From positions 496,001 to 560,000 of the forward strand of contig CDPCPM010000479.1 in NCBI GenBank assembly GCA_976551045.1: a stretch of DNA of 64,000 nt, read 5' to 3'. The notes below the pieces were generated by a model. The model was not told the DNA's origin and did no database searches. It saw nothing but the letters and a program-made list of their open reading frames with translations. A program made the position numbers and the translations under genes. Positions 1 through 60,778 of this stretch are shown here, in pieces. How positions within the stretch are numbered: position 1 is the stretch's first letter; every line of letters starts with the position of its first letter. This DNA is from Glaucostegus cemiculus (Eukaryota).

Positions 1-2886
1 CACGTAATGGTAACTAGAAAGATCCCACTTTCAGAGTTAATTGAAAAGCGTTTGAAGAGTACATGTGAAGTGTGGAATTGAAAATGTATAAGCGCTCTGG
101 GGCTTGCAATTGAAATGCTTGGCGCTATTAAGTGATGGTAGATTTAGGTGCTGTGACCAGTAGAGCATTACTGTTAAATTTAATAATATTTAATTGTGGA
201 ATCAATTGAACTAAAGGCCAGGAACCTTTTAAAAGATATATCTGATGGAGGGATTTGGCTACCTGAAGTTGTGAAACCACAAAGTCGTCCATTCCTTACA
301 CAAACAGAAATTAGATATTGTGTATCGATTAGCTTTTCCTGAGGAAAAGAGAATATTTGTTTTATTAATGAGCTGTTTCCAACTTTTTTTTGAGTATCTT
401 GTAGATGATGCAGTATATTAATGAACTACGTGATTACAAAAATAAAATTTGAGTTACCGTGCAGTATTTTATAATTCTAAACAGTCCATAGGTAGTAATG
501 TATTAGTGTTTTAAAAAGAAAGTTAGTGTGACTTGTGCCAGTGTTACTGTTTTAGGTGAGTCTCCCCATACCCTTTTAATTCCTATCTCCCTTGTGTTCA
601 TATAGCCCAGTGAGTTTCACTTTCTAACCACTCTCTGGGAAAACAGGTTTCTCTTGAATTCCCTTCTGAATTCATTAATAACTGGTTCCCATAATGTATC
701 AACCATTTCAGAATTTTAAAGGTTTCATCCAGGTCATCTCTCATTTTTTTTCTAGATAAGGGAGTTTGTCCCTGACCAGTCTTTTCTGATAAATGTAACC
801 TGTATGTTCTATTCTAATTCTAGTAAATATTTGTACATTTTTTCCAGTGCTTCTGTATCTTTTATATAAAATGTCCAATGTTGCTCACCATGCTACTAAG
901 TATGGGCATGTAAGTAATAACGTAACATCTTATTTTGAAATTTGACCCCTCAGAAATGAACCCCATTCCCATATCCTCTTATTCCTTCCTTTGAAGCAGT
1001 ATGTGATGATCTCATTTTCTTCATCAAAGTATAACATTTTACTTTTGCTAATTAAATGCTGAATCTGCAGGCCATTCATATTTTCTTATTGTTTATCGAT
1101 ATTCTTCTCGTTTTTCACTGTACCACACGTGCATTGAAGTCCTGGCCTTGCAGCAGTTTAAGTGAGTAATTGTTGATGGTTCTGTTCAAGATATTTGACA
1201 TTTACCAGCAAATTTCAGGCCCTTGTAGCAGATTTCTTGAGTTGCTTTTGGTGGGTCACGATGAGTTACTTTTGTATCATAGAACATATCATCAGGACAT
1301 TAATGTACCACTAACTGAATAAGTTGTATTAGTTTTATTTATGAGCTCTTTATATTATCTTGTACATATTTGCAAACATGTCTGTGGAAGCTGTATTTGC
1401 TAGCGCTATGCTTAACTTCCATGTACAGTCTAATAGAAGTAGCATTTTGCCAAAAGAATGGATATTGAAAGAAGCCTCCAGAGGTTTTTTTGCAGTAAGA
1501 TTTTGTTTCGACTTTTAAAAATGTACCACTCATATAGAAACATTTATATGCAAATAATATACATTGAAATTATCTTTTGAACCTTTTATCAAAAGAAGTT
1601 AGTTGATTGCATGCCGTTTTCTTGGATACTCAAGTGGTTGTCTACTGAAAGGATCACCAATCACTTAATTTCATTCCTTACTGTAATGGTCGAGTTATGG
1701 TTTGAATGAAACATTAATGTAGCTATAAAGCAAACTGATTAAAATTTATTGCCATCGTTATTGACAGAATGTGTATCAATTGCCATTGTTCTATTTATAC
1801 TTCTAACTTTGTTATTACTGCTATACCAGGAGGTACTGAAATAGTGGAAAGAAGACTTTTGCTTCTTTATTCTAAATTTAATTATATAGTCTGAGGGAAT
1901 GGTACATACTGTTGTATATCAGGTGGAAGTTTCAACTGTATTATAGATGTCTCCATCTACAGCTGGTCATCACATTTGAACCATGGAATCTAGATAATGG
2001 CTATGTTAATCTGGCATTCCAAAGGATGATTAGCATTTTTAGATTTTTTTCTGTTTCAGAAATAAGAATTACTAGTAATCAATGGAGCCCAATGGAGCCC
2101 TCACCTGTACCTCATTTACTTCCCGTACTTCTGCTCTTAGTCCACTCCCCGCAGATAGAACAGGGGTAAAGTTTCCTTGGTCCTCACCTTTCACCCCACA
2201 GCCTGCACATCCAGCACATCATTCTTTGAAACTTCTGCCAGCTACAACTTCATTCTACCACCATCCACATCTTTTGCTCCCCACAGCTTTCTGCTTTCTG
2301 CAGGGACACTCCTGGATCACTCCCTGGTTTGTTCATATCCATTTCATACCCATCCTGCCTCCCCCTACCCGGCACTTTCCCCATACACTTTAGGAGGCAT
2401 ACCACCTGGCCCTACACCACCTCCCTCACCACCATCCAAGGCCCTAAACAGCCCTTCCATGTCAGGCAGAGATTCACATGCGTCTCCTCCAATCTTGTTT
2501 ATTGCATTCAATGCTCTCTACATTGGTGAGACCAAGTGCAGACTGGGTGACCACTTTGCCAAGTACTTGCACTCTATTTGCCATGGCCTTCTGGAGCTCC
2601 TGGTTGCTAGCCTTTTTAATTCCCCTCTCCATTTCCACACTGATCTATCTGTCTTCAGCTTCCTCTACTGCCAGGGTGAGATTAAAAGCAAATTGGAGGA
2701 ACAACACCTCATATGCTGCCTATGTAGTCTACAACCTGACAGCATGAATGCTGAATTTTCCGGTTTCTGGTAAACTGCACCCCCTCTGTCCCTTTTCCCT
2801 CTCCTGATCTATCCAGTTCCTCCTACACCTGCCTCTGCCCACCCCACCTCCCTTATTTGATTCCATGCTCCACCTTCCTTTCCTAT

Positions 2887-2986
2887 CAGAAGCATGGCGA
2901 CACTTGCAGCTGCTCCCAGAACACTACGCAAAAAGATGTATTTCACTATTTTGATGTACATGTGACAAATAAAGGTACCTTATCTT
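2887..2986 (+). mobile_element. 5'-truncated SINE tail nested in the Penelope 3' region
   Basis: cagaagcatggcgacacttgc..gtacatgtgacaaataaaggtaccttatct aligns with the 3' half of the SINE at 3449-3735. Confidence 0.8.
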
Positions 2987-3135
2987 TGTTGCCTCCATCT
3001 CTCAGCCTTTCTCACTATTTCCACTTTTTCCTCCTCCATTTGCCTATCACCCCCTCCTTCATCTGGATCCACCTATTGCTTGCCAGTTCTTGCTCCACCT
3101 TCTCCCCTTTATATTGGCTGTCTCCCTTCCACCTT

Positions 3136-3175
3136 TCAGTCCAGATGAGGGGTCTCCACCTGAAACGTCGACTGA
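3136..3175 (+). ncRNA. Minimal hammerhead ribozyme motif in PLE pLTR (best-preserved copy, U4A core change)
   Basis: Stem I tcagtc/gactga; core CAGATGA (consensus CUGANGA); stem II gggt-ctcc-acct; GAAAC; GTC cleavage triplet with palindromic ACGT stem III. Confidence 0.75.
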
Positions 3176-3448
3176 CCATTTCCCTCCACAGATGCAGCGT
3201 GACCTGCTGAGTTCCTCCAGCATTTTGTTTGTTGCTACAAATTCTTGTATCTGCAGTCTCCTATGCCTACAATTATTAGATAACTATTACTTGTATGTAA
3301 TTTTCCTTATCCTGGTCTGATTCTACAATTCAATCTCCATGAACTCCGCAGGTTAGGTGTTCCTTTGTATTCAGTAACAAATATGAATGATGTCACAGGA
3401 ATGAGGGTATAGTGGAATCTGTCAGTGGAGGGTAAATCTGATTTCAAA

Positions 3449-3735
3449 GTGTAGCAGTTAGAGTAATGGTATTACAACGCCAAGGACCTGGGTTCAATTC
3501 GGGCTACTTTCTGTAAGGAGCTTGTACGTTCTCCCCATGTCTGTATGAATTTCCTCCGGGTACTCCGGTTTCCTCCCGCATTCCAAAGACATACGGGTTA
3601 GGAAGTTATGGGCATGCTATATTAGTGCCAGAAACATGGCAACACTTGTGGGCTGCCCCCAGAACACTCTATGCAAAAGGTGCATTTCACTGTGTGTTTC
3701 GATGTATGTGTGACTAATAAAGATACCTTATCTTA
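3449..3735 (+). mobile_element. tRNA-derived V-SINE with Rex1-like tail
   Basis: B-box gggttcaattc; V-domain-like ttctccccatgtctg..tttcctccgggtactccggtttcctcccgcattccaaagac; tail ..gtgactaataaagataccttatctta. Confidence 0.85.
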
Positions 3736-10640: not shown

Positions 10641-11509
10641 TTGACCTGAAACATTACCTATTTCTCTTTTCACACTTGCTACCCGACCTGCTGAGTTTTT
10701 CCAGTTTATTCTGTTTTTATTTCAGATTTCCACCACTTGCAGCTTTTTTCTGATCTTTCAAAGTACTGTAGCACATCCTTGAGAAGCTGGAGTACTGAGA
10801 GTTCAAATGACCAATATTTCATTAACTCTTTTAGTGAAAGATTTCCGCTCAGTTGCTTTTCCCTCTCAAATATCACAATTGGCATTGAGTGCAAGTGCCA
10901 TATTTAGTCATTAAAATTTATTGTGGGGCAGCAATTCTAAATTGTTGGCCTCAGGGACCAAATAACAAACTACAAAATACTCGAGGCATGGTCTGCTGTG
11001 TAGTATTGATCAGGGCAAAATATTAGGTTAGCAGCAGTAAAGTGCCATTAAATGCCAAGTATAATAGCAGTGGAATGCTATTAAGGTAGCTTTTTCATTG
11101 CATTGATGCAATTGTTTTGTCAATTTAGTTAGGATTGATGTTGCGTGCTGGTAAAAGATAATTATATTTCATACTTTGTATATGAATGAGCAGAGGGATA
11201 GAGAACCAGGACTCCTGTATTTTCCCCTATGCCACAGAGAAATGTATCTCCCTAGTTTGAATGGATGAACTGAGTTGCAGGTATCATACTGAGGTTGACA
11301 CCAGAACACTGCACTGCTTTGATAATTTGTGAAACATCTAGTATGTGTCCTTATTTTTCAACATTGCACTCTGTTGACTTCTTTATAATGTCATTTTGCA
11401 AAGTAGACAAATATTCTCTTCATCTTTAGATTTTTGAAAATAATACGTATTGTACTTTATAACTGCCAATTACTTTCAGACAAGTGACTAATAGTAAGCA
11501 AGTAATATG

Positions 11510-16012: not shown

Positions 16013-17396
16013 AGTTTTCTGCCATCAGTTCTTGGACACTGGTAGCCTGATTTATTGGTTATATTCAGGATAGTGGTTTTCATGCTATTCTCCCAAAATC
16101 TGGGGTGATTACAATGGTCTGGAGTTGCAGAGGTCGTAAAGTCAGTTTTCAGAATAACCAACCCTGGAACCTTTGGTAAAGAAACAAACCTTTTCACTTT
16201 ATTTCTTCTGCCAGGTGTGCATTCTTTATTTTCATTTTTCAAAAAATGACTGAGCAATACAAAATTTAAAAAAGAGAGGATTCAGTTCAAATGTGAAAAT
16301 GCTGATAATGAGTACTACATGATGTACCTTTGCACAGAGGAATCTTGCTCACCATTCTCCCACCAGCTACAGAGGCGCTTGGAAGTTTTCCTAGATTTTC
16401 CCACAGTCAGATGAGTGTGGTATGTGGCCACTGGAGGATTAGGCTGAATTAGCAAACCTCTGCTCTGCTTGAATATGCTTTAGTAAGTATTGATGTTGTC
16501 CTTTCAAACAAATGTAAACTGCTGATCCTTGCATATTGCATGACCGTGCTGTCCGAGTGAATAAAGTCAATTGTTTGAATTTCAAATGTTGTATATTACA
16601 CTGAGAATAAGATGTGCTTTCTGGAGCTGTGTCCTTTCTAAAGGATGGCACAATGCATTCTGAAATAAAAGATTGACTTTCTAGAGGTTCTTTAAAATAG
16701 TTTTCTGACATCAGTTCATGAACACTGGTAGCCTGACTTATCACTTATTGTATATTCAGGATAGTGGTTCTCATGCTATTCTCCCAAAATCTGGGGTGAT
16801 TACAATAATCTGGAGTTGTAGTGGTCGTAAAGTCAATTTTCAGAATAATCAATCCCGGAACCTTGGGTAAAGAAAAGAACCTTTTCACTCTATCTTCTGC
16901 CAGGTGTGCATTGTTTATGTGCACTGTTTATTTGCATTTTTCAAAAAAATGACTGAGCAATATAAAATTAAAAAGAGGACTAATTTCAAATGTGAAAATG
17001 CTGATAATGAGTGCTACATGATGTACCTTTGCACAGAGGAATTTTGCTCACCATTCTCCCACAAGCTGCAGAGGTGCTTTTTCCTAGATTTTCCCACAGT
17101 CAGATGTGTGTGGTATGTGGCCACTGGAGGATTGGGCTGAATTAGCAAACCTCTGCTCTGCTTGAAAATGCTTTAGTAAGTATTGGTGTTGTCCTTTCAA
17201 ACAAATGTAAACTGCTGATCCTTGCATATTGTATGACCGTGCTGTCCGAGTGAATAAAATCAATTGTTTGAATTTCAAATGTTGTATATTACACTGAGAA
17301 TAAGATGCGCTTTCTGCAGCTGTGTCCTTGTTAGAGGTTGGCACAATGCAGTCTGAAATAAAAGATTGACTTTCTAGAAGTTCTTTAAAATAGTTT
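16013..17396. repeat. Direct tandem duplication of ~686 bp (copy 1 16013-16698, copy 2 16699-17391)
   Basis: Long matching blocks such as catgctattctcccaaaatctggggtgattacaa and tggtatgtggccactggaggatt; paralogous minus-strand ORFs 16439-16744 and 17084-17344 are near-identical. Confidence 0.97.
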
Positions 17397-18325
17397 ATTA
17401 AAATAGTTTAATAGTCATGCATATAGTTAAAGTATCAGGGATTTTTTTTGTGAATTAGAACCCATTATAAAAATCATTACCAAAAAAAAAATAATTTACT
17501 TCTCTTCCCAAAAAGGGAAGAAAAATTGTGGAAATGAGGTTTTGTATTCTTGTTATTAACAGGTTGTTACTGGGCCTGCTTAACGGCAAAGCTGAAGTAA
17601 TGTCAATGGATGTAATCTTCAGTCCCTTATCACTGGGGATAAAAGCTGGAGTCCCATGTTTTGAATATTGTAGATCTGGCAAGATGACTCCAATTTGCCA
17701 GTAGCAGTGCTATTTTAGAACAAAATCTTTGCAATTATAGGCATGGGTAATAGCTCCATGTACTGAATCTGCAATGGTGTAAGGGGGGAGAAAAAAACAT
17801 TCTTACCCTAAGGCTTATTGTTCTCTTGAAATGAAGTTCCTTCTGGCTATTTTAAAGCCCCAGTGCAAAATGCAGAAGGAAATATTTGCGTCTTATTTGC
17901 TCTTTCTTCCCAGTGGGGACCTTTCTTATATCTGGTCCAAGATTGTTTTAAGGATGGAAATTGCAGCTGCACTGATTCTATATACTTACATAATGTATAT
18001 GTGCACTTCCCTTTGATAGTCATGGCTCAGTTTTCAGTAGTGGGAACTCCAGTAAGGTATATATATATTCAGTCTGATCTGAATTTGATTTTTATTGATA
18101 TAGTTATAGAGCCTTTCTTAATCCATTTCTATTTTGGCAATACTGAGATTCCAATGCAATGGCAGAGCAATAATAGGACCATCAATGATGCTTTCTTGTC
18201 TTTCACTGATTTTTGTGGAAAAATATCCATACCTCCAGAGAGTTCTTTTTCTGATTGTTGGTTTGTGTTGGCAGAAGGATTGGAACAAGTTGTATGTTCG
18301 TTCTCCACTAAAGGTAATGAACTCT

Positions 18326-18450
18326 CAGTTCTGATGCAGGGTTTCGACCCGAAACATTGACAATTCCTTCCCCCGCACCCCCCCCCCCCCTTCCCCAAAG
18401 TCACTGCAGATTGTTTGTTGTTCCAGATTTCAGCATCTGCTGTCTCTAGG
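18326..18450 (+). mobile_element. Solo PLE pLTR with hammerhead motif (18326-18362)
   Basis: cagtt-CTGATGC-a-gggt(ttcg)accc-GAAAC-att-gac, followed by ttgttccagatttcagcatctgc. Confidence 0.75.
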
Positions 18451-18679: not shown

Positions 18680-18846
18680 GGTAGCATCTGTGAAGAGAAA
18701 AACAGAGTCAACATTGCAGGTTGATGACTTTTCATCAGAACTGGCCAATTCTGATGTAAGCTTGTCAACATGTAATATTAACTTTGTTTTTCTCTCTCCG
18801 CAGATATTGTTCTACTGAGTATTTTCAATAATCTCATTTATTTTAG
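18680..18846. mobile_element. Palindromic PLE-derived element: two head-to-head pLTR/hammerhead arms
   Basis: Arms catctgtgaagagaaaaacagagtcaacattgcaggttgatgacttttcatcagaac and ttctgatgtaagcttgtcaacatgtaatattaactttgtttttctctctccgcagata are centred on tggcca (18742-18747). Confidence 0.75.
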
Positions 18847-22544: not shown

Positions 22545-25020
22545 CTAACCCCTTCCTCCCACATATCCATCTCTTTTAAATTCCTCCATATGCTTATATA
22601 GTAATCTCTTAAATTTGGCCAATGTACCTGCCTCCACCACTGCCTCAGGCAGCGCATTCCATGCCCCAACCACTCTCTGGGTGAAAAACCTTCCTCTGAT
22701 ATCTCCCTTGAACTTCCCACCCATTACTTTAAAGCCATGCCCTCTTGTATTGAGCATTAGTGCTCTGGGGAAAGAGGCGCTGGCTGTCCACTCTATCTAT
22801 TCTTCTTAATATTCTGTAAACCCCTATCATGTCTCCTGTCATCCTCCTTCTCTCCAAAGAGTAAAGCCTAGCTCCCTTAGTCACTCCTCATAATGCATAC
22901 TCTCTAAACCAGGCAGCATCCTGGTAAATCTTCTCTGCACCCTTTCCAACGCTTCCACATCCTTCCTATAATGAGGTAACCAGAACTGGACACGGTACTG
23001 TAAGTGTGGTCTAACCAGAGTTTTGTAGAGCTGCATCATTACCTCATGGCTCTTAAACTCGATACCACAACTAGTGAATGCTAACATCCCATAAGCTTTC
23101 TTAACTATCCTATCCCCTATCCACCTGTGAGGCAACTTTTGAGGATCTGTGGATATGAACCCCCAGAACCCTCTGCTCCTCCACACAACTCAGAATCCTG
23201 TCATTAACCTTGTACTCCACCTTGGAGTTTGCCTTTCCAAAGTGTACCACCTCACACTTCTCTGGACTGAACTCCATCTGCCACTTCTCAGCCCAGCTCT
23301 GCGTCCTATCACTGACCCTCTGCAATCTTTAACAATCCTCCACACTATCCACAACACCACCAACCTTTGTGTGTGTGTGCAAACTTGCCAACCCACCCTT
23401 CTACCCCTTCATCCAAGTCATTCATAAAAATCATGAAAGGCAGAGATCCCAGAACCAATCCTTGTGGGACACCACTAGTCACAACCCTCCAATCTAAATG
23501 CACTCCCTCCATCCACAACCCTCTGCTTTCTACAGGCAAGCCATTTCTGAATCCATACAGGCAAGCTTCCCTGGATCCCTTGGCCTCTGACCTTCTGAAG
23601 AAGCCTACCACATGGAACCTCATCAAAGGCCTTGCTAAAATCCATGTAGACCACATCTACTGTACTACCCTCATCAATCTGCCTGGCCACCTCCTCAAAG
23701 AACCCTATCAGACTTGTGAGACATGATCTGCCCTTCACAAAGCCATGCTGGCTGTCCTTTATCAGACCATGATTCTCTAAATGCCCATAGATCCTATCTC
23801 TAAGAATCCTTTTCAACAGCTTGCCCATCACAGACGTAAGGCTCACTGGTCTATAATTCCCTAGACTATTCCTACTTCCTTTTTTGAATAAGGGGACAAC
23901 ATTTGCCATCCTCTAATCCTCTAGTACCATTCCCATGGACAACGAGGACTCAAAGATCCAAAGGTTCAGCAATCTCCTCCCTCACTTCCCAGAGCAGCCT
24001 GGGGAATATTACGTCGGGCCCCGGGGACATATCTGTCCTAAGATTTTCTAATACATGCTCTAGAGCCAACTCTGTCCTCAGCATCATCAAGGCCCCTCTC
24101 CTTGGTGAATACTGAACTATTCATTTGAGGACCTCACCCATTTCCACATCTTCCAGGCACATCTTCCCACCTTTATCCCTAATCAGTCCTACCTTTATTC
24201 CTGTTATCCTTCTGCTCTTCACATAAGTGAAAAATGCCTTGGAGTTTTCCTTAACCCTACTCACCAAGGCCTTTTCATGGCCCCTTCTTGCTCTCCTCAG
24301 CCCCTTCTTAACTTCCTTCCTTGCTACCCTGTGTTCCTCAAAAGACCGATCTGATCCTTGCTGCCTAAACCTTATGTATGCTGCCTTCTTCTTCCTAACT
24401 AGATGTTCCACCTCTCTTGTCAACCATGGTTCCTTCACCCTGACATTCTCATTTACCAGGACAAATTTATCCTTAACGTCCTGCAAGAGATCCCTGAACT
24501 ATGACCACCACTCCATAGTACACTTCTCTTCAAAAATATCATCTCAGTTTACACTTGCAAGTTCTAGCCTTATAGCCTCATAATTTGGCCTTCCCCAGTT
24601 AAATGTTTTCCTGTCCTCTTTGCTCCTATCCTTATCCATGACGATGCTAAAGGTTATGGAGCAGTGGTCACTGTCCCCCCAAATGCTCACCCGCTGAGAG
24701 ATCTGCCACCTGACCCAGTTCATTACCTAATACTAGATCTAATATGGCATTCTCTCTAGACGGCCTGTCAACATACTGTGACAGGAATCCATCCTGGACA
24801 CGCTTAACAAACTCTGCCCTGTCTAAACCTTTGGTACTAAGCAGGTGCCAATCAATATTTGTGAAGTTGAAGTCTCCCATGATAACGACCCCGTTATTTT
24901 TGCACCTTTCCAAAATCTGCCTCCCAATCTACTTCTCAGTATCCCTGCTGATACCAGGGAGCCTATGGAATACTCCCAGTAGAGTAACTGCTCCTTTCTT
25001 GTTCCTAACTTTCTTGTTCC
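22545..25020 (-). pseudogene. CR1 ORF2 (APE endonuclease and reverse transcriptase), broken
   Basis: Chain of minus ORFs 24668-24913, 24121-24486, 23475-23909, 23345-23656, 23110-23325, 22881-23186 and 22545-22757 carrying canonical CR1 motifs. Confidence 0.93.
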
Positions 25021-28304: not shown

Positions 28305-29185
28305 AGATGAGGAGGGATGATGGGCAGATGGAGCCAGGTGGGAGAGGCTGCTAAGTGATAGGTGGAATCAGATGGGGAGGGGATGATTTGCAGCGGGAAC
28401 CAGGTGAGAGGAAGAGGTGGGAAAGGTGATCAAAGGGAGAAGAAAGCTAAGTGGACAGGTGAGTGTGTGTGGGAGAGAACACTGGGTTACCTGGAATTGG
28501 AAAACTCAATGTCCATGCCAAGCTACCAAAGTGGAATATGACAAGTTGCTCTTCCTATTTGCTTTTGGTCTCCACCTAGCATTGGAGAAGATGGAAGACA
28601 GGCAGGTCAGTGTGGGATTGACAGGGAGAGATAAAATTATGTGCAACAGGAAGATCAAGATGGCCATTGTGGATAGAGTGAAGCTGCTCTGCAAAACTGT
28701 GGCCTAATCGGTTTGGTTTCAACACTCTGGAGGAGTACTGAATGCAGTAGATCAGGTTGGAAGAGATGCATGTGAATCTCTTCCTCACTTGGAAGGGCTG
28801 TTTAGGTCCTTGTATGGTGGTGAGGGAGGATGTGAAGGGACAGGTGTTACACCTAGGGTTGCAGGGGAAAGTGCCAGGGGATAGAGTGGTGAGGGATGAA
28901 TGGTTCGGGGAGTCCTGAAGAGAGTGGTCACTGCGGACATCAGAAATGGGGGGGGAGACGAGAAGATGTGACTTGTGGTGGTATCGCATTGAAGTTGGTG
29001 GAAATAGCAGAGGATGATGTGTTGAAAATGAAGGCTGGTGGGATGAAAAGTGAGGAGCAGGGGTACTCTATTGGTATTTTGTCTGGGGAGAAGGTGGCTG
29101 AGAGCAGATTTGCAGGAAATGGAGGAAACCTGTGTGCGGTCTCCATCAATTATGGCAGACAGGAAGTCTCATTTCTAGGAGAGTA
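28305..29185 (-). mobile_element. PLE fragment (RT-EN linker, Cys motif, GIY-YIG, 3' region)
   Basis: Minus ORF SDHSLQDS..PGTFPCNPRCNTCPFTSSLTTIQGPKQPFQVRKRFTCISSNLIYCIQYS..LPVAHNFISPCQSHTDL. Confidence 0.9.
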
Positions 29186-29535
29186 ACCCCTGGTGTTCTC
29201 TTCCCACTCACCTGTCACTTCTGGCTTCTGCCCTCTTCTCTTCCAGTCCTGATAAAGGGTCTCGGCCTGAAATGTTGGCTGTTCATTTTATTCCATAGAT
29301 GCTGCTTGACCTGCTGAGCTCCTCCAGCATTTTGTGTGTTGCTCCATACTTTCAGCATCTGCACTCTGTCTTCTGTCTCCACCTGTCCATTTAGCATCTG
29401 CACTCTGTCTTCTCCCTTTGTTCACCTGTCCCATTCCCCCACGGTTCCATCTGGCCATAATTCCCTTCTCATCTGGTTCCACATCATCTGCCTATCATCC
29501 CCTTCTAATTCGGTTCCATCTATCACCTTTGGAAT
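29186..29535 (+). mobile_element. Inverted PLE pLTR and 3' region joined to the 5' end of the minus-strand PLE; hammerhead motif at 29244-29281
   Basis: cagtc-CTGATAA-a-gggtctcggcct-GAAAT-gtt-ggctg, then catagatgctgcttgacctgctgagctcctccagcattttgtgtgttgct. Confidence 0.85.
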
Positions 29536-33432: not shown

Positions 33433-34654
33433 ACGGTGTGTTCTGTGCTGTAAATTATATGAATGTTTTCTTTCAGAATGATATGTTTAGTGCTGCAATG
33501 ATGACCAGGTACTTTGGCTTCTCTGTCCCCTAATACAAGGAAATCTGTTCCATTATGATAGAAAAATAAAACCTGGTATAGAAAAGAACATAGTTGCAGA
33601 AGAGTTTTCCATTGCTTATTGCTTGGTTTTTGGGTGTATTGTGTGTCTAATTCTAGCAACAGTACTCTGTTTAAAAATCGAAATAGCCAATATGCCTGGT
33701 TGTCATCATTTGTCCTAGAAAACAAGGAAACAGCATGTGATATTTGTTTATTTTGTTTGGATTTGGTGCAATAACAATGATGAAAATAACTGTGATGAAG
33801 GTAACTTGCAGGTAGCATGTAAAATGTATATTTTTGGTGCAGCAAATCAGAAATGCAGTAATGGGGGAGAGGAACATCAGAATGTCAGGGAGAGTTGTTG
33901 GTAGTTTGACAATTGAATGGATTCACTAAGCTGCCTATAGGAGCCTATCAGAAAGCCTGTTATTGGAGTTAAAGTGCTTTCTGTATAATTGCTGATGAAT
34001 TGCTGCATGACTATAGCAAAGACTGAGATATCTTTGAGAGTATGTGATTACATTGCACATTCTTGATTCAAAATATGTTATTTTATTCTTTATTTACATT
34101 TTATTTTCAGTCTCAGAATAGGTTGACTATCCATGGTGGGAAAGGGCATTTTCATGTTGCATAGGTGATGTACCAGTGTCTTGATTTTTTGATGAGATAT
34201 GCAAGTATTTAGTACAGGTGACATTAATTATCAATTTGACATTTTCTGGATATATGGAGCCACAGCACAAGGTTTTATGCCTTGAGGCAACTTCAATTGC
34301 CTGCAGCTACTAAACAGAGCTCATTGGCTGTGTAGTTTGGACGAAAAAAGGTCAGTTACCATAACGACATATTATTTATACCTCTTGAAAGCCACATTTT
34401 AAAACTAGAAATGAAATCATTTTGAACTGCTGGTAAAACCATTTTTAAATGACAAACTGTCATCAATCGCCGCTTTCAGTCAAGAACCAGAGCACCACAA
34501 TGGGAATGCAGTCTTTGTAGTACTGTCTCTCGTGTAGTTGGTTTAGTAGGCATGAGAACTGCACCATTTGGGAATTTCCTGAGCTCACTTGTTTAAATAA
34601 TCTTGGATTTAAATCCTGCTATCTTATTTTGTATATTAAAAAGATCACCCATGT

Positions 34655-34820
34655 GCTCGGACTTCCTCTATACTACTCCCTTTCTTGTTATACTGGCCAT
34701 CTGCCCTCTCCACTGTCAGTCCTGATGCAGGGTTTCAACACGATACATCGACAGTTCCTTTCCTCTCACACATGCTACTCGACCCACTGAGTTCATCCAG
34801 CAAATTGTTTGTTGCTCAGC
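34655..34820 (+). mobile_element. Solo PLE pLTR with degenerate hammerhead (34717-34754)
   Basis: cagtc-CTGATGC-a-gggtttcaacac-GATAC-atc-gacag; then gacccactgagttcatccagcaaattgtttgttgct. Confidence 0.75.
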
Positions 34821-39059: not shown

Positions 39060-39420
39060 GGTTGTCAATACCATAATGCTACTTTTCCACTTTAGTCATG
39101 GGCCAGGAGATTCCCGGGAGTCAGTGGAGTTATTGCAGTCCTTCAGGGAAGCTATGAGCACAGTCTTGAATCTTTCTCTCTTTTTGCTTGCAATCTCCTT
39201 CCACCACAGAGTTCAGAATAGGGTGTCTCTTTTGAGTGTCCATTTCAATTCCCCTTCCCGTTCCCACACTGACTTGTCCATCCTTGGCCTTCTCTGCTGC
39301 CAGGCTGAAGCACACAACACAAACTGGAGGAACGACACCTCATATTTTGCCTGGTTGGTCTGCAACCCAATGGAATGAACATAGAGTTTTACAATTTTAG
39401 GTAACCCACCCACCCCTGGT
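39060..39420 (+). mobile_element. PLE GIY-YIG C-terminal fragment
   Basis: HFNSPSRSHTDLSILGLLCCQAEAH, followed by aaactggaggaacgacacctcatatt..caacccaatggaatgaacatagagttt. Confidence 0.8.
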
Positions 39421-46097: not shown

Positions 46098-48700
46098 ATG
46101 CATAGAACAGTACAGCACAGTACGGGCCATTTGGCCCACAATGTTGTGCCGACATATATAAACCTACTCCATGATCAATCTAACCCTTCCCTCCCACACA
46201 GCCCATAACTCTCCATTTTTCTTACATCCACGTTTTTTAAGAGTCTCTTAAATGTCCCTATTGTATCAACCTTCACCACCACTCCTGGCAGTGCTTTCCA
46301 GGCACTCACCATTCTGTGTGTATTTAAAAAGAAAATCCTACCTCTGACATCTCTGCTAAATTTTTCTCCTCTGACCTTAAATGAATGCCCTCTGGTATTG
46401 GCCATTGCCGTCCTGGGGAAAAGATGCTGGCTGTCCACTCTATCCATACCCCTCATAATCTTATACACCTCTCTCAAGTCGCCCCTCATGGTGTGTTGCT
46501 CCAAAGAAAAGAGCACTTGCTCACTCAACCTTTCCCCACAAGACACGTTCTCTAATCCAGGCAACATCCTGGTAAATCTCCTCTGCACCCTCTCTAAAGC
46601 TTCTACATCTTTCCTTTAATGAGGTGACCAGAACTGAACACAATACTCAAGTGTGGTCTAACCAGAGTTTTATAGAGCTGCAATGTTATCTCATGGCTCT
46701 TGAACTCAATAATGAAGCACATCATACACCTTCTTAACCACCCTATCAACTTGCGTGGCAGCTTTGAGGGATCTATGGACTTAGACCCCAAGATCCCTGT
46801 GTTCCTCCATGCTGCTAAGAATGCTGCCATTAACCTTGTATTCCATCTTAAAGTTTGTTCTTCCAAAGTGTATCACTTCACTCTTTTCTGAATTGAACTC
46901 CATTTGCCACTTCTCTGCCCAACTCTGCATCCCGTCTGTATCCCATTGTAATCAACGACAACCTTCTACACTATCCACAACACCTTCAGCCTTCATGTCA
47001 TCTGCAAGTTTACTAACCCATCCCTTCAATTCCTCATCCAAGTCATTTATAAAAATCACAAAGAGCAGGGGTCCCAGAACAGATCCCTGCAGAACACCAC
47101 TAGTCACGAACCTCCAGGCAGAATACTCTCCATCTACTACCACCCTCTGCTTTCTGCCAATTCTGAATCCACACAGCCAAATCTCCATGGATCCCATACC
47201 TCATGACTTTCTGGATGAGCCCACCATGGGGAATCTTGACTAGCACTTTACCAAAGTCCATATACACCAAATCCACTGCTCTACCTTCATCAATTTGTTT
47301 TGTCACCTCCTTGAAAAACTCAATTAGGCTCATGAGGCATGATCTGCCCCTCACAAAGCTATGCTGACTGTCCCTAATAAGACTATTCTTCTCCAAATGC
47401 TTGTAAATCCTGTCCCTAAGAATCCTCTCCAATAGCTTGCCCACCACTGACATAAGACTCACTGGTCTATAATTGCCAGGATTAACCCTATTACCCTTCT
47501 TGAACAAGGGAACAACATTTGCAATCTTCCAGCAGCAGTCCCATGGCCAGGGAGGACACAAATATCATCATCAATGCCCCAGCAATCTATTTCCTTATTT
47601 CCCATAGTAACCTGGGCTATATCCCATATGGCCCCGGGGACATATCTATCCTAATGTTTTTCAGAAGCTCCAACACTACCTCTTTCATAACCTCAACATG
47701 CTCCAATACATTAGCCTGACCTCTCATTCCTCAAAGGCCCTCTCCCTAGTGAACACTGAAGCAAAGTATTCATTAAGGACCTCCGCCGCCTCCAGGCACA
47801 TGTTTCCCCCCTTTATCCCTGAGCGGTCCTACCATCACTCTAGTCATCCTCCAGTTTTTCACGTACATGTAGAATGCCTTGGGGTTTTCCTTAATTCTAT
47901 TCACCAAGGCCTTCTTATGTCCTCTTCTGACTCTCCCAAGTCCCTTCTTTAGCTCCTTCTTGGCTACCTTATAATTCTCAAGAGCCCTCACTGATTTTTG
48001 CTTCCTAAACCTTAAGTATGCTTCCATATTTCTCTTGACTAAATGTTTCACCTCTTTTGTCAATCATGATTCCTTTATCCTACCATCCTTTCCCTGTCTC
48101 TGTGAGGCAAACCTATCCAGAAACCCATACAAGTGTTCCCTAAACAGTCTCGACATTTCTGCTGTGCATCTCCTTGAGAGCATTTGTTTCCGATTTATGG
48201 TCCCAAGTTACTTCCTAATACCATTGTAAAAAGCCCTCCCCCAGTTAAAAACTTCTCCATATAGTCTGCTCCTATCCTTATCCATGGCTATGCTAAAGGT
48301 CAGGAAGTTTTGGTCACCACCTCTGAAATGCTCACTGACCGAGAGGTCCGTCACCTGACCTGGGTCATTGCCTAGTACTATGATCCAGTATGGCCTCTCC
48401 TCTAGTCAGCCTGTCCAGGTACTGTGTCAGGAATCCTATCTGGACACCTAACAAATTCTGCACGATCTAAACCTTTTGCACTGTTCCCTTAACTAAAGAA
48501 TCCCCTATCACTACCTCACTCCTCTTCTCCTTCCTTCCCTTCTGATCCACAGAGCCAGACTCAGTGCCAGAGACCTGGCAGCTATGGCCTTTTCCTGGTA
48601 GGTGTCCCGTTTCCATCACCACCCTCCCAAAAGTATCCAAAGCAGTATACTTGTTATTGAGGGGAACAGCCTCAGGGGTACACTGCACTGACTGCCTACT
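46098..48700 (-). mobile_element. CR1 LINE with large internal deletion (ORF1 fragment fused to the EN end), inactivated
   Basis: ORF1 piece TPEAVPLNNKYTALD..VVIGDSLVKGT; RT motifs ANVVPLFKKGNRVNPGNYRPVSL, TSGVLQGSVLGPLLFVIFINDLD..SKLADD and RGDLREVYKIMRG; 3' tail. Confidence 0.93.
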
Positions 48701-50469: not shown

Positions 50470-51440
50470 CACGAATGGCTATTCCCTCTGGACTTTTATC
50501 CCATACCATGATAGTCTGAGGTCCCTTCACTCCTTTGAACAAAGACCCAACCAGTTTCTAACACCTCCCTCTCACCCCCCCCCCTCCAAAAACAATGACT
50601 AACTTTGCCACTGTCTTTGTCTAAATCGTGTGTTGTTATAGGAACTCACATGGACTAAAGCTATGCCCACCTCTAAGTGGGTGATGTAGAACAGTTCTGT
50701 TGTTGTTAACTTTGCTGCTAAGTTCCACCTTGGTCTCACTTTCATATGGCCCCTATATGACTGTTCCCTTTGTTTTCTAGACTTCTTTGTCTCCATTTCA
50801 GGAATAGGTTAGTGACCAATATCTATACAAGTTTACAGATTCTTACAGCTGTTCTGACTACATCTCCCACCTTATTTCCTGGAAGGACTCCATTTCTTCT
50901 AGTTTTTCCATTTCTGTTTTACCTGCTCTATTGAAAAGAGATTCCACAGCAATGCTTTTGTGATGTCTCCCTTTTTGCTTAAATGTAGCTTTCCCTCTAA
51001 CCATAGTCCACAGGACTCTCAACTGTGCTTCTTGCCTTGAACTTTCACTCTTCTCCTTGCTCTCACTCCTTCCCCTGGTCTTCACCACCAGCCTCCATAT
51101 TCACTGGTCATGTTCTTTAACTTCCACCACTTTAAATGAGATTTCACCACGAGCCACGTTTTTCCTTCCTATCTCCTCACAGCAATCTGAAACAACCTTC
51201 CTAGTTTGCTCTTCCATCTTCACCAATCACTTCCTTTCTCATGACATTTTTGCATGCAACTGCAGGAGATGCAATGCATGCCCTTTTACCTTGTACCTTG
51301 CCTCCATCCAGGGACCCAAGTTGTGTTTCCAGTTGAAGTGTCAATTCACTTGCACGACTGCCATTTTAGTACATTGCCTTGAGTGCTCACAATGTGGTCT
51401 CCTCCAAACAGAATGATTGGATGACAGCTTTACAGCCAGA
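50470..51440 (+). mobile_element. Decayed PLE (RT remnant to GIY-YIG)
   Basis: ORF LPLVFTT..IFACNCRRCNACPFT..IQGPKLCFQLKCQFTCTTAILVHCLECSQCGLL; upstream RT-like remnants. Confidence 0.75.
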
Positions 51441-60681: not shown

Positions 60682-60778
60682 AGATAAGATGTTTATTTTT
60701 TAGTTACATGTACATTGAAACACACAGTGAAATGCGTCTTTTTGCATTACTGAGAATGTGCTGGGGGCAGCCCGCAAG
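60682..60778 (-). mobile_element. 5'-truncated SINE tail (Rex-type tail family)
   Basis: Reverse complement cttgcgggctgcccccagcac..gcatttcactgtgtgtttcaatgtacatgtaacta matches 3646-3735. Confidence 0.8.

What the first reader, a model, noticed from the sequence alone, without database searches (positions are those of the whole stretch)
3136..3175. Minimal hammerhead ribozyme in a Penelope terminal repeat (reference copy of a dispersed family)
Seen: tcagtc|CAGATGA|g|gggt-ctcc-acct|GAAAC|GTC|gactga. This gives a 6-bp stem I, a near-canonical CUGANGA/GAAA core, a 4-bp stem II and a palindromic ACGT stem III ending at a GUC cleavage triplet. Established: Penelope-like elements carry minimal type-I hammerheads in their pLTRs that cleave efficiently as dimers. 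Inference: the consensus over this window's copies is about cagtc-CTGATGA-a-gggtcnngaccc-GAAACGTC-gactg, an intact ribozyme. This copy has U4A, so it may be weak or dead.
Basis: partly seen in the sequence, partly recalled or inferred. Interest (0 to 1): 0.7.

Follow-up and report, generated by a model that had tools for sequence, protein, structure and literature searches.

The report
Penelope hammerhead fossil, subfamily-wide core change
This is a worn copy of the small self-cutting RNA motif that Penelope-type jumping genes are known to carry; its one odd core letter is shared by thousands of sister copies, so that branch of the element likely spread with a weak or dead ribozyme.

Summary
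The motif is as described. It lies in the 3' pLTR of a decayed, 5'-truncated Neptune-type Penelope-like element (GIY-YIG remnant 2090-2775; longer sister copies carry RT), probably in a shark or ray genome. Hammerheads in pLTRs are known (PMC4209133).

It is a subfamily trait: 1,967 exact genome matches have A4, 2,124 have U4 and 272 have C/G4, and A4 tracks the flank tree. A second subfamily has C at position 9 (1,350 matches). CUGA mutants are low-activity in published mutagenesis, so these lineages likely amplified with little cleavage.

Copy 5' ends pile up at the first base of stem I (11 of 28 A4 copies within 4 nt), not at the cut site. This suggests an uncleaved RNA template that likely starts there.

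This copy is old, has no tandem partner and is likely inert. The scan noted both features before on other DNA (e1-9046945, e1-9057645). No cleavage was tested, and Lunse 2017 on pLTR hammerhead variants could not be read.

The parts
2090..2775 (+). 5'-truncated, frameshifted C-terminal part of a PLE ORF: end of the RT C-terminal region, degenerate Cys linker, GIY-YIG endonuclease
   Evidence: Translations; tblastn to RT+GIY-YIG proteins P0006/P0001 E 4e-10 to 1e-8 and to ray protein P0011 52%; homology to sister copies begins at about 2091
2776..3136 (+). Pyrimidine-rich 3' UTR / upstream part of the pLTR
   Evidence: Collinear with sister copies at 75-90%
2888..2990 (+). Later insertion of about 100 nt, like the 3' tail of the SINE-like repeat at 3629-3734
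   Evidence: 80% to 3629-3734; sister copies mostly skip from 2890 to 2984/2996
3137..3141 (+). Stem I 5' arm; A3138 is the modal 5' end of short sister copies (inferred transcript start, Initiator-like)
   Evidence: the Initiator consensus is recalled, not from a call
3142..3149 (+). Hammerhead core 3-9 with subfamily-fixed A at position 4 (3143), plus the extra purine 9a (G here, A in 57 of 67 family copies)
3150..3161 (+). Stem II and loop; 10.1-11.1 pair is G.U here through CpG-type decay at 3161
3162..3169 (+). GAAA core half, ACGT palindrome (3165-3168, dimer-only stem III), GUC triplet; predicted cut 3169/3170
   Evidence: Sequence; architecture as in PMC4209133
3170..3175 (+). Stem I 3' arm (5 bp in the family; A3175 is private)
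3176..3275 (+). Downstream pLTR and 30-40 nt 'tail'; family 3' ends cluster at about +60-76 and +90-111 from C17
   Evidence: tail concept from PMC11167929, PMC8557442

Best explanation
This is a fossil minimal type I hammerhead at the 3' end of a decayed Penelope-like retrotransposon copy; its U4A core change was inherited from a master element that made thousands of copies, likely with little or no self-cleavage. Shown: the motif, its place behind a PLE ORF remnant, the A4 subfamily, a second subfamily with C at core position 9, CpG-type decay of the copies, and a pile-up of 5' ends at the first base of stem I with almost none at the cut site. Inferred mechanism: the element's transcript would start at about A3138, so the hammerhead is the first thing in the RNA. 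The PLE protein would prime reverse transcription in the tail 60-110 nt downstream of the cut site and copy uncleaved RNA. On RNA begun in that pLTR it would run off the 5' end, giving 100-140 nt stumps, often with an inverted partner. On read-through RNA from an upstream unit it would go on into the UTR and ORF, giving copies like this one. Since cleavage would not be needed for insertion, core changes could drift to fixation in a master lineage while the stems and the start-site letters persist. This copy is predicted to be inert.
For: PLE context. A4 is inherited: 29 of 29 best other genome hits carry A at position 4 (ranked by likeness to the query, so biased). Matched patterns give A4 1,967, U4 2,124, C/G4 272, controls 0. 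With core letters left out, the A4 label needs 3 changes on a 59-row tree against a shuffled mean of 19.9, 0 of 500 as low. C9 subfamily: 1,350 matches. CUGA single and double mutants are low-activity except the C3G/G8C swap (PMC9901934 passages). Core mutants of the Anolis PLE hammerhead still insert in vitro, and no RNA-seq reads end at its cut site (PMC11167929). 5' ends: 11 of 28 resolved A4 copies (30 examined) start at -34..-31, 7 at exactly -31, against 0.25 expected from the upstream truncation rate. In 27 head-to-head pairs not picked by pattern, 11 have an end at -33..-28 and 0 of 54 ends lie at -1..+2 (my count). RNA reads of three runs show no place where many molecules begin or end. 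Age: median 88% identity to the family majority, best 96%. No same-strand hammerhead-bearing copy within 7 kb. The double-hammerhead fold is predicted 11 kcal/mol worse than the best dimer.
Against: No cleavage assay exists for this motif. A natural U4C viroid variant keeps enough activity in vivo (PMC3088659), and the Anolis hammerhead is protein-assisted, so A4 may still cut in the RNP. The hammerhead shape is kept across subfamilies (79% of cells paired; one compensatory C-G/U-A switch in 16 of 57 rows), so the structure was under constraint at some time. An A4 RNA could have been mobilised in trans by U4 elements, so its success need not show that cleavage is dispensable. The transcript start is inferred from insertion ends only. 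The excess of G before A-31 expected from a cap is modest (41 of 100 against 29% background, p 0.006; 11 of 30 in the fetched subset). The same RNA lay shows no pile of starts at -31 either (species match and library type unknown). Only 3 of 18 U4 copies are stumps. Energy models disfavour the active fold for U4 copies too, so that test does not separate A4 from U4.
Confidence: 0.7

Rival explanations
1. A4 is a tolerated, active natural core variant: the subfamily's hammerhead cuts as a dimer or with help from the PLE protein, and processes tandem transcripts.
For: All other core positions and both stems are intact in the A4 majority. Natural core variants with activity exist (PMC3088659). 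The Anolis PLE hammerhead cuts only with protein (PMC11167929). The subfamily was very successful.
Against: CUGA mutants are low-activity and not rescued by second changes (PMC9901934). Copy 5' ends avoid the cut site. A second, independent core-changed subfamily (C9, stem I cut to 3 bp) also amplified.
Confidence: 0.2
2. The CAG at stem I is a splice acceptor, as in D. virilis Penelope, and the 5'-end pile-up comes from splicing or from an RT stall or fold-back at stem I, not from a transcript start.
For: A pyrimidine tract plus CAG precedes stem I in most subfamily majorities. In D. virilis the intron ends at helix I (PMC4209133). Exact stem I fold-back junctions exist (18 matches).
Against: Stumps keep the AG and often the C, which splicing would remove. 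Their flanks share no evident first exon (by eye). Fold-back products are rare (18 against 408 contiguous).
Confidence: 0.2
3. One reading: U4A is private decay of one copy from an intact CUGAUGA family consensus.
For: The other copies in this window carry U4.
Against: Those copies belong to other subfamilies. A4 has 1,967 exact matches and tracks the flanks.
Confidence: 0.02
4. The motif has been co-opted by the host at this locus as a working ribozyme.
For: The GAAAC-GUC half is intact here despite three CpG sites.
Against: The copy has four private changes in 40 nt, is as diverged as its sisters and has no tandem partner. Orthologous loci and a host gene were not examined.
Confidence: 0.02

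Closest known systems
[quoted passage not shown]
   Same: In a pLTR behind an RT-GIY-YIG ORF; no helix III; palindromic 15.2-16.2; extra base between 9 and 10.1; G10.1-C11.1 in the family; mostly dispersed single copies in consensus families.
   Different: Core has A at position 4 in a whole subfamily. The only core change named in the parts read is U3-A8. Stem II is 4 bp. Cartilaginous fish are not named in the parts read or in the one searchable supplement.
Neptune-clade EN+ Penelope-like elements (Arkhipova 2006, recalled; described in PMC8557442 passages)
   Same: C-terminal GIY-YIG with a Cys-rich linker before it, heavy 5' truncation, inverted 5' partners, 30-40 nt tail.
   Different: Clade assigned from the linker motif only; no RT tree was built and no full-length element was found.
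Anolis Poseidon PAc hammerhead (Frangieh et al. 2024, PMC11167929; parts 1-2 of 4 read)
   Same: Two internal RT start sites about 35 nt apart downstream of the hammerhead; uncleaved RNA as template; no RNA ends at the cut site.
   Different: PAc has a canonical core and an active protein. Here the core is changed and the family looks extinct. A pile of 5' ends at stem I is not described in the parts read.
Non-LTR retrozymes (bioRxiv 10.64898/2026.07.22.740005, passages)
   Same: pLTR-related short units with type I hammerheads; reported in one chondrichthyan.
   Different: Retrozymes are head-to-tail tandem arrays with complete motifs. These copies are dispersed singles or head-to-head pairs, and this one is attached to an ORF remnant.

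Membership tests
PLE min-HHR | Lies in the pLTR of an RT + GIY-YIG element | tested here: met
PLE min-HHR | Type I topology, stems I and II, no helix III, palindromic 15.2-16.2 | tested here: met
PLE min-HHR | Extra nucleotide between 9 and 10.1; G10.1-C11.1 | tested here: met
   9a is A in 57 of 67 family copies (G here); 11.1 is C in 35 and T in 32 of 67 by CpG-type decay (T here)
Hammerhead ribozyme (canonical core) | Core C3 U4 G5 A6 N7 G8 A9 ... G12 A13 A14 A15 U16 H17 | tested here: not met
   A at position 4 in this copy and its subfamily; core definition from PMC3088659
Hammerhead ribozyme (canonical core) | Compensatory changes in stems | tested here: inconclusive
   One clear C-G/U-A switch at the stem I base (16 of 57 rows, essentially one event); none in stem II; 315 of 500 shuffles reach the number of covarying pairs
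Hammerhead ribozyme (canonical core) | Self-cleavage after H17 | not testable with these tools
   No assay; no pile of RNA ends
Rfam hammerhead families | cmscan match | tested here: not met
   No hammerhead hit at E<=1 in the window; expected for a motif without helix III (inference)
Neptune clade PLE | Cys-rich linker between RT and C-terminal GIY-YIG | tested here: met
   CxCxxCxxC-type linker in sister copies, degenerate in this copy
Neptune clade PLE | RT phylogeny with reference PLEs | not tested
   No named reference set at hand
Non-LTR retrozyme | Head-to-tail tandem units with complete hammerheads | tested here: not met
   Single copy attached to an ORF remnant; no tandem partner in the window

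The most novel reading that the evidence does not exclude
In this PLE clade the hammerhead is a vestige sitting on the promoter. Transcription starts on the first base of stem I, RT makes a 100-140 nt strong-stop-like copy from the tail to the cap, and at least two autonomous lineages fixed core-breaking changes (A4, C9) and still made thousands of copies each: a natural knockout showing that cleavage is dispensable for PLE retrotransposition in vivo.
Probability: 0.35. Interest if true: 0.55.

Novelty: new variant of a known kind. Interest (0 to 1): 0.3.

Why it matters
What hammerheads do in EN+ Penelope-like elements is still called unclear (PMC8557442). Subfamilies that differ by one fixed core letter (U4, A4, C9) in one genome give a ready natural series for a simple cleavage test. 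The sharp 5' boundary gives a testable prediction for the transcript start. The single copy in this window is ordinary debris.

Tried and rejected
Rfam scan of the window: no hammerhead hit.

Pfam on six remnant frames: 0 families; homology came from the protein search and tblastn.

Full-length element: none among 19 best EN-region loci; the longest reach into the RT, so ORF start, autonomy and selection on the A4 lineage are untested.

Folding z-scores are not significant; dimer energies do not separate A4 from U4.

Stem I fold-back as the main source of stumps: rejected, 18 against 408.

An A4-U7 pair rescuing the core (idea from a recalled U4.U7 contact): no support found; PMC9901934 reports no rescue within the CUGA motif.

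A DPE-like motif at the D. virilis spacing (PMC2377424 passages): by eye 5 of 8 letters and 2 nt off; not claimed.

Sequencing runs: no RNA holder listed. In contigs of four other organism labels no change was listed at core position 4 against an A4 reference. This fits A4 being present there, but one run may be the source sample and a missing row proves nothing.

Lunse et al. 2017 (PMC5785218), on small PLE hammerhead variants, is not held and may already describe U4A. Supplement file 1 of PMC4209133 could not be searched, and bioRxiv supplements are closed.

No host gene was sought beyond an ORF list.

Full report
Observation. The predicted cut is 3169/3170. Rfam found no hammerhead in the window at E<=1, and the fold is no better than shuffles (z -0.61). 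The identification rests on core sequence, context and family counts.

Context. The DNA at 2090-2775 translates, across frameshifts, to the end of a PLE ORF with a GIY-YIG endonuclease. A sister-copy frame found 12 proteins among 93 candidates, including RT+GIY-YIG polyproteins and a ray protein at 65%. These hit the window remnant by tblastn. Longer sister copies show RT motifs and a Cys-rich linker, the mark of the Neptune type (PMC8557442, passages). The genome is 2.85 Gb; a shark or ray is inferred from the protein hit. The copy is 5'-truncated at about 2090, has a later insertion of about 100 nt at 2888-2990 and ends at about 3275. A profile of the pLTR end found 139 hits in 100 evenly spaced 10-kb stretches, roughly 4 x 10^5 genome-wide by extrapolation, and 11 in the window.

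U4A is inherited. All 29 other loci fetched from the 40 best genome hits have A at position 4 (ranked by likeness to the query). Patterns identical but for that letter gave A 1,967, T 2,124, C or G 272, and 0 for reversed controls. A shorter A4 pattern gave 3,244. In the systematic sample 6 of 84 clustered copies were A4-family. On a tree of 59 of 76 eligible copies built without the core letters, A4 needs 3 changes against a shuffled mean of 19.9, 0 of 500 as low; support is low and the A4 copies form a star. Clustering 238 copies gave about six subfamilies: A4; U4; one with C at position 9 and a 3-bp stem I (1,350 exact matches); one with A7; and an old one with a GUU triplet.

Age and state. 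Sixty-seven A4 copies are a median 88% identical to their majority, at best 96%, with changes concentrated at CpG sites. This copy has private or CpG-type changes at 3149, 3157, 3161 and 3175; the last makes the sixth stem I pair. The nearest same-strand family fragments are at 10642 and 18325. The double-hammerhead fold is predicted at -14.5 against -25.7 kcal/mol for the best dimer; U4 copies behave alike. Across 57 chosen copies 79% of stem cells pair, with one compensatory switch at the base of stem I (16 rows) and none in stem II: weak covariation.

Where copies begin and end. 3' ends cluster at about +60-76 and +90-111 from C17, like the two RT start sites and tail of the Anolis element (PMC11167929, parts 1-2 read). 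Of the first 30 A4 pattern loci, 28 were resolved: 11 start at -34..-31 (7 at -31, the A at 3138), 4 at -39..-41 and 13 between -93 and -1431. The pattern fixes -31 as the shortest possible start, but the upstream truncation rate predicts only 0.25 ends in those 4 nt. For U4, 3 of 18 were such stumps. Of 38 head-to-head pairs, 27 were not pattern-selected; 11 of these have an end at -33..-28 and none of their 54 ends lies at -1..+2. In the systematic sample 9 of 60 starts lie at -32..-28 and 1 at +1 (my counts). A pattern for copies lacking the normal flank gave 837 matches; the base before -31 was G 41, A 41, T 18 in the 100 listed (hand count), a modest G excess over 29% (p 0.006). Exact stem I fold-back is rare (18 against 408). 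The letters around -31 match the Initiator consensus (recalled) and persist in subfamilies where they no longer pair. RNA reads of three runs cover the family in both orientations and show no pile of starts or ends anywhere, neither at the cut site nor at -31.

Mechanism. Shown: motif, PLE context, A4 and C9 subfamilies, decay, end distributions. From papers: min-HHRs cut poorly even as dimers (PMC4209133, parts 1-2 read); CUGA mutants are low-activity without rescue (PMC9901934, passages); PAc core mutants still insert; U4C is a natural low-activity viroid variant that stays infectious (PMC3088659, passages and section 8). Inferred: the transcript starts at stem I, RT primes in the tail and copies uncleaved RNA, giving stumps from pLTR-initiated RNA and longer copies from read-through RNA. 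Cleavage is not limiting, so core changes fix in master lineages. Untested: any cleavage, the transcript start, and whether the A4 lineage was autonomous.

Novelty. Hammerheads in pLTRs are known, and a 2026 preprint (passages) finds related retrozymes in one chondrichthyan. Searches found no report of a U4A subfamily or of the stem I 5' boundary, but Lunse et al. 2017 could not be read. Earlier notes of this scan on other DNA mention a shared core change and a shared start point; I saw them after reaching both results (notes). Verdict: real, a known kind, a likely inert copy. The subfamily-fixed core change is a modest new variant that makes the role of PLE hammerheads testable. Interest 0.3.

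Noticed in passing
window 18325-18369, 34645-34817; genome-wide: Sister subfamily with C at core position 9, a UUCG-type loop II and stem I reduced to 3 bp; 1,350 exact matches.
   Followed up: partly
window 28363-29146 (-) and 29185-29381 (+): Inverted arrangement: a PLE EN remnant on the minus strand back to back with a U4 pLTR on the plus strand.
   Followed up: partly
window 18694-18795: Perfectly abutting 51-nt inverted repeat made of two old-subfamily hammerhead ends.
   Followed up: no
window 50705-51404 (+), 39240-39418 (+): Further decayed PLE ORF pieces.
   Followed up: no
window 3460-3734: Repeat that looks like a tRNA-derived SINE (by eye); its tail also sits inside the PLE UTR at 2888-2990 and at 60682-60778.
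   Followed up: no
window 22868-24449 and 46516-48089: Two long copies at 74-80% identity of another repeat, probably a LINE.
   Followed up: no
window 16060-17378: Young tandem duplication of about 690 nt at 91-96% identity.
   Followed up: no
window 2079-2098: 10-nt direct duplication at the 5' junction of the element.
   Followed up: no
L012 1542-1605 in contigs of runs X2, X5, X6, X7: Opposite-strand joints mostly pair the stem I 5' arm with points downstream of the cut site, in four organism labels.
   Followed up: partly
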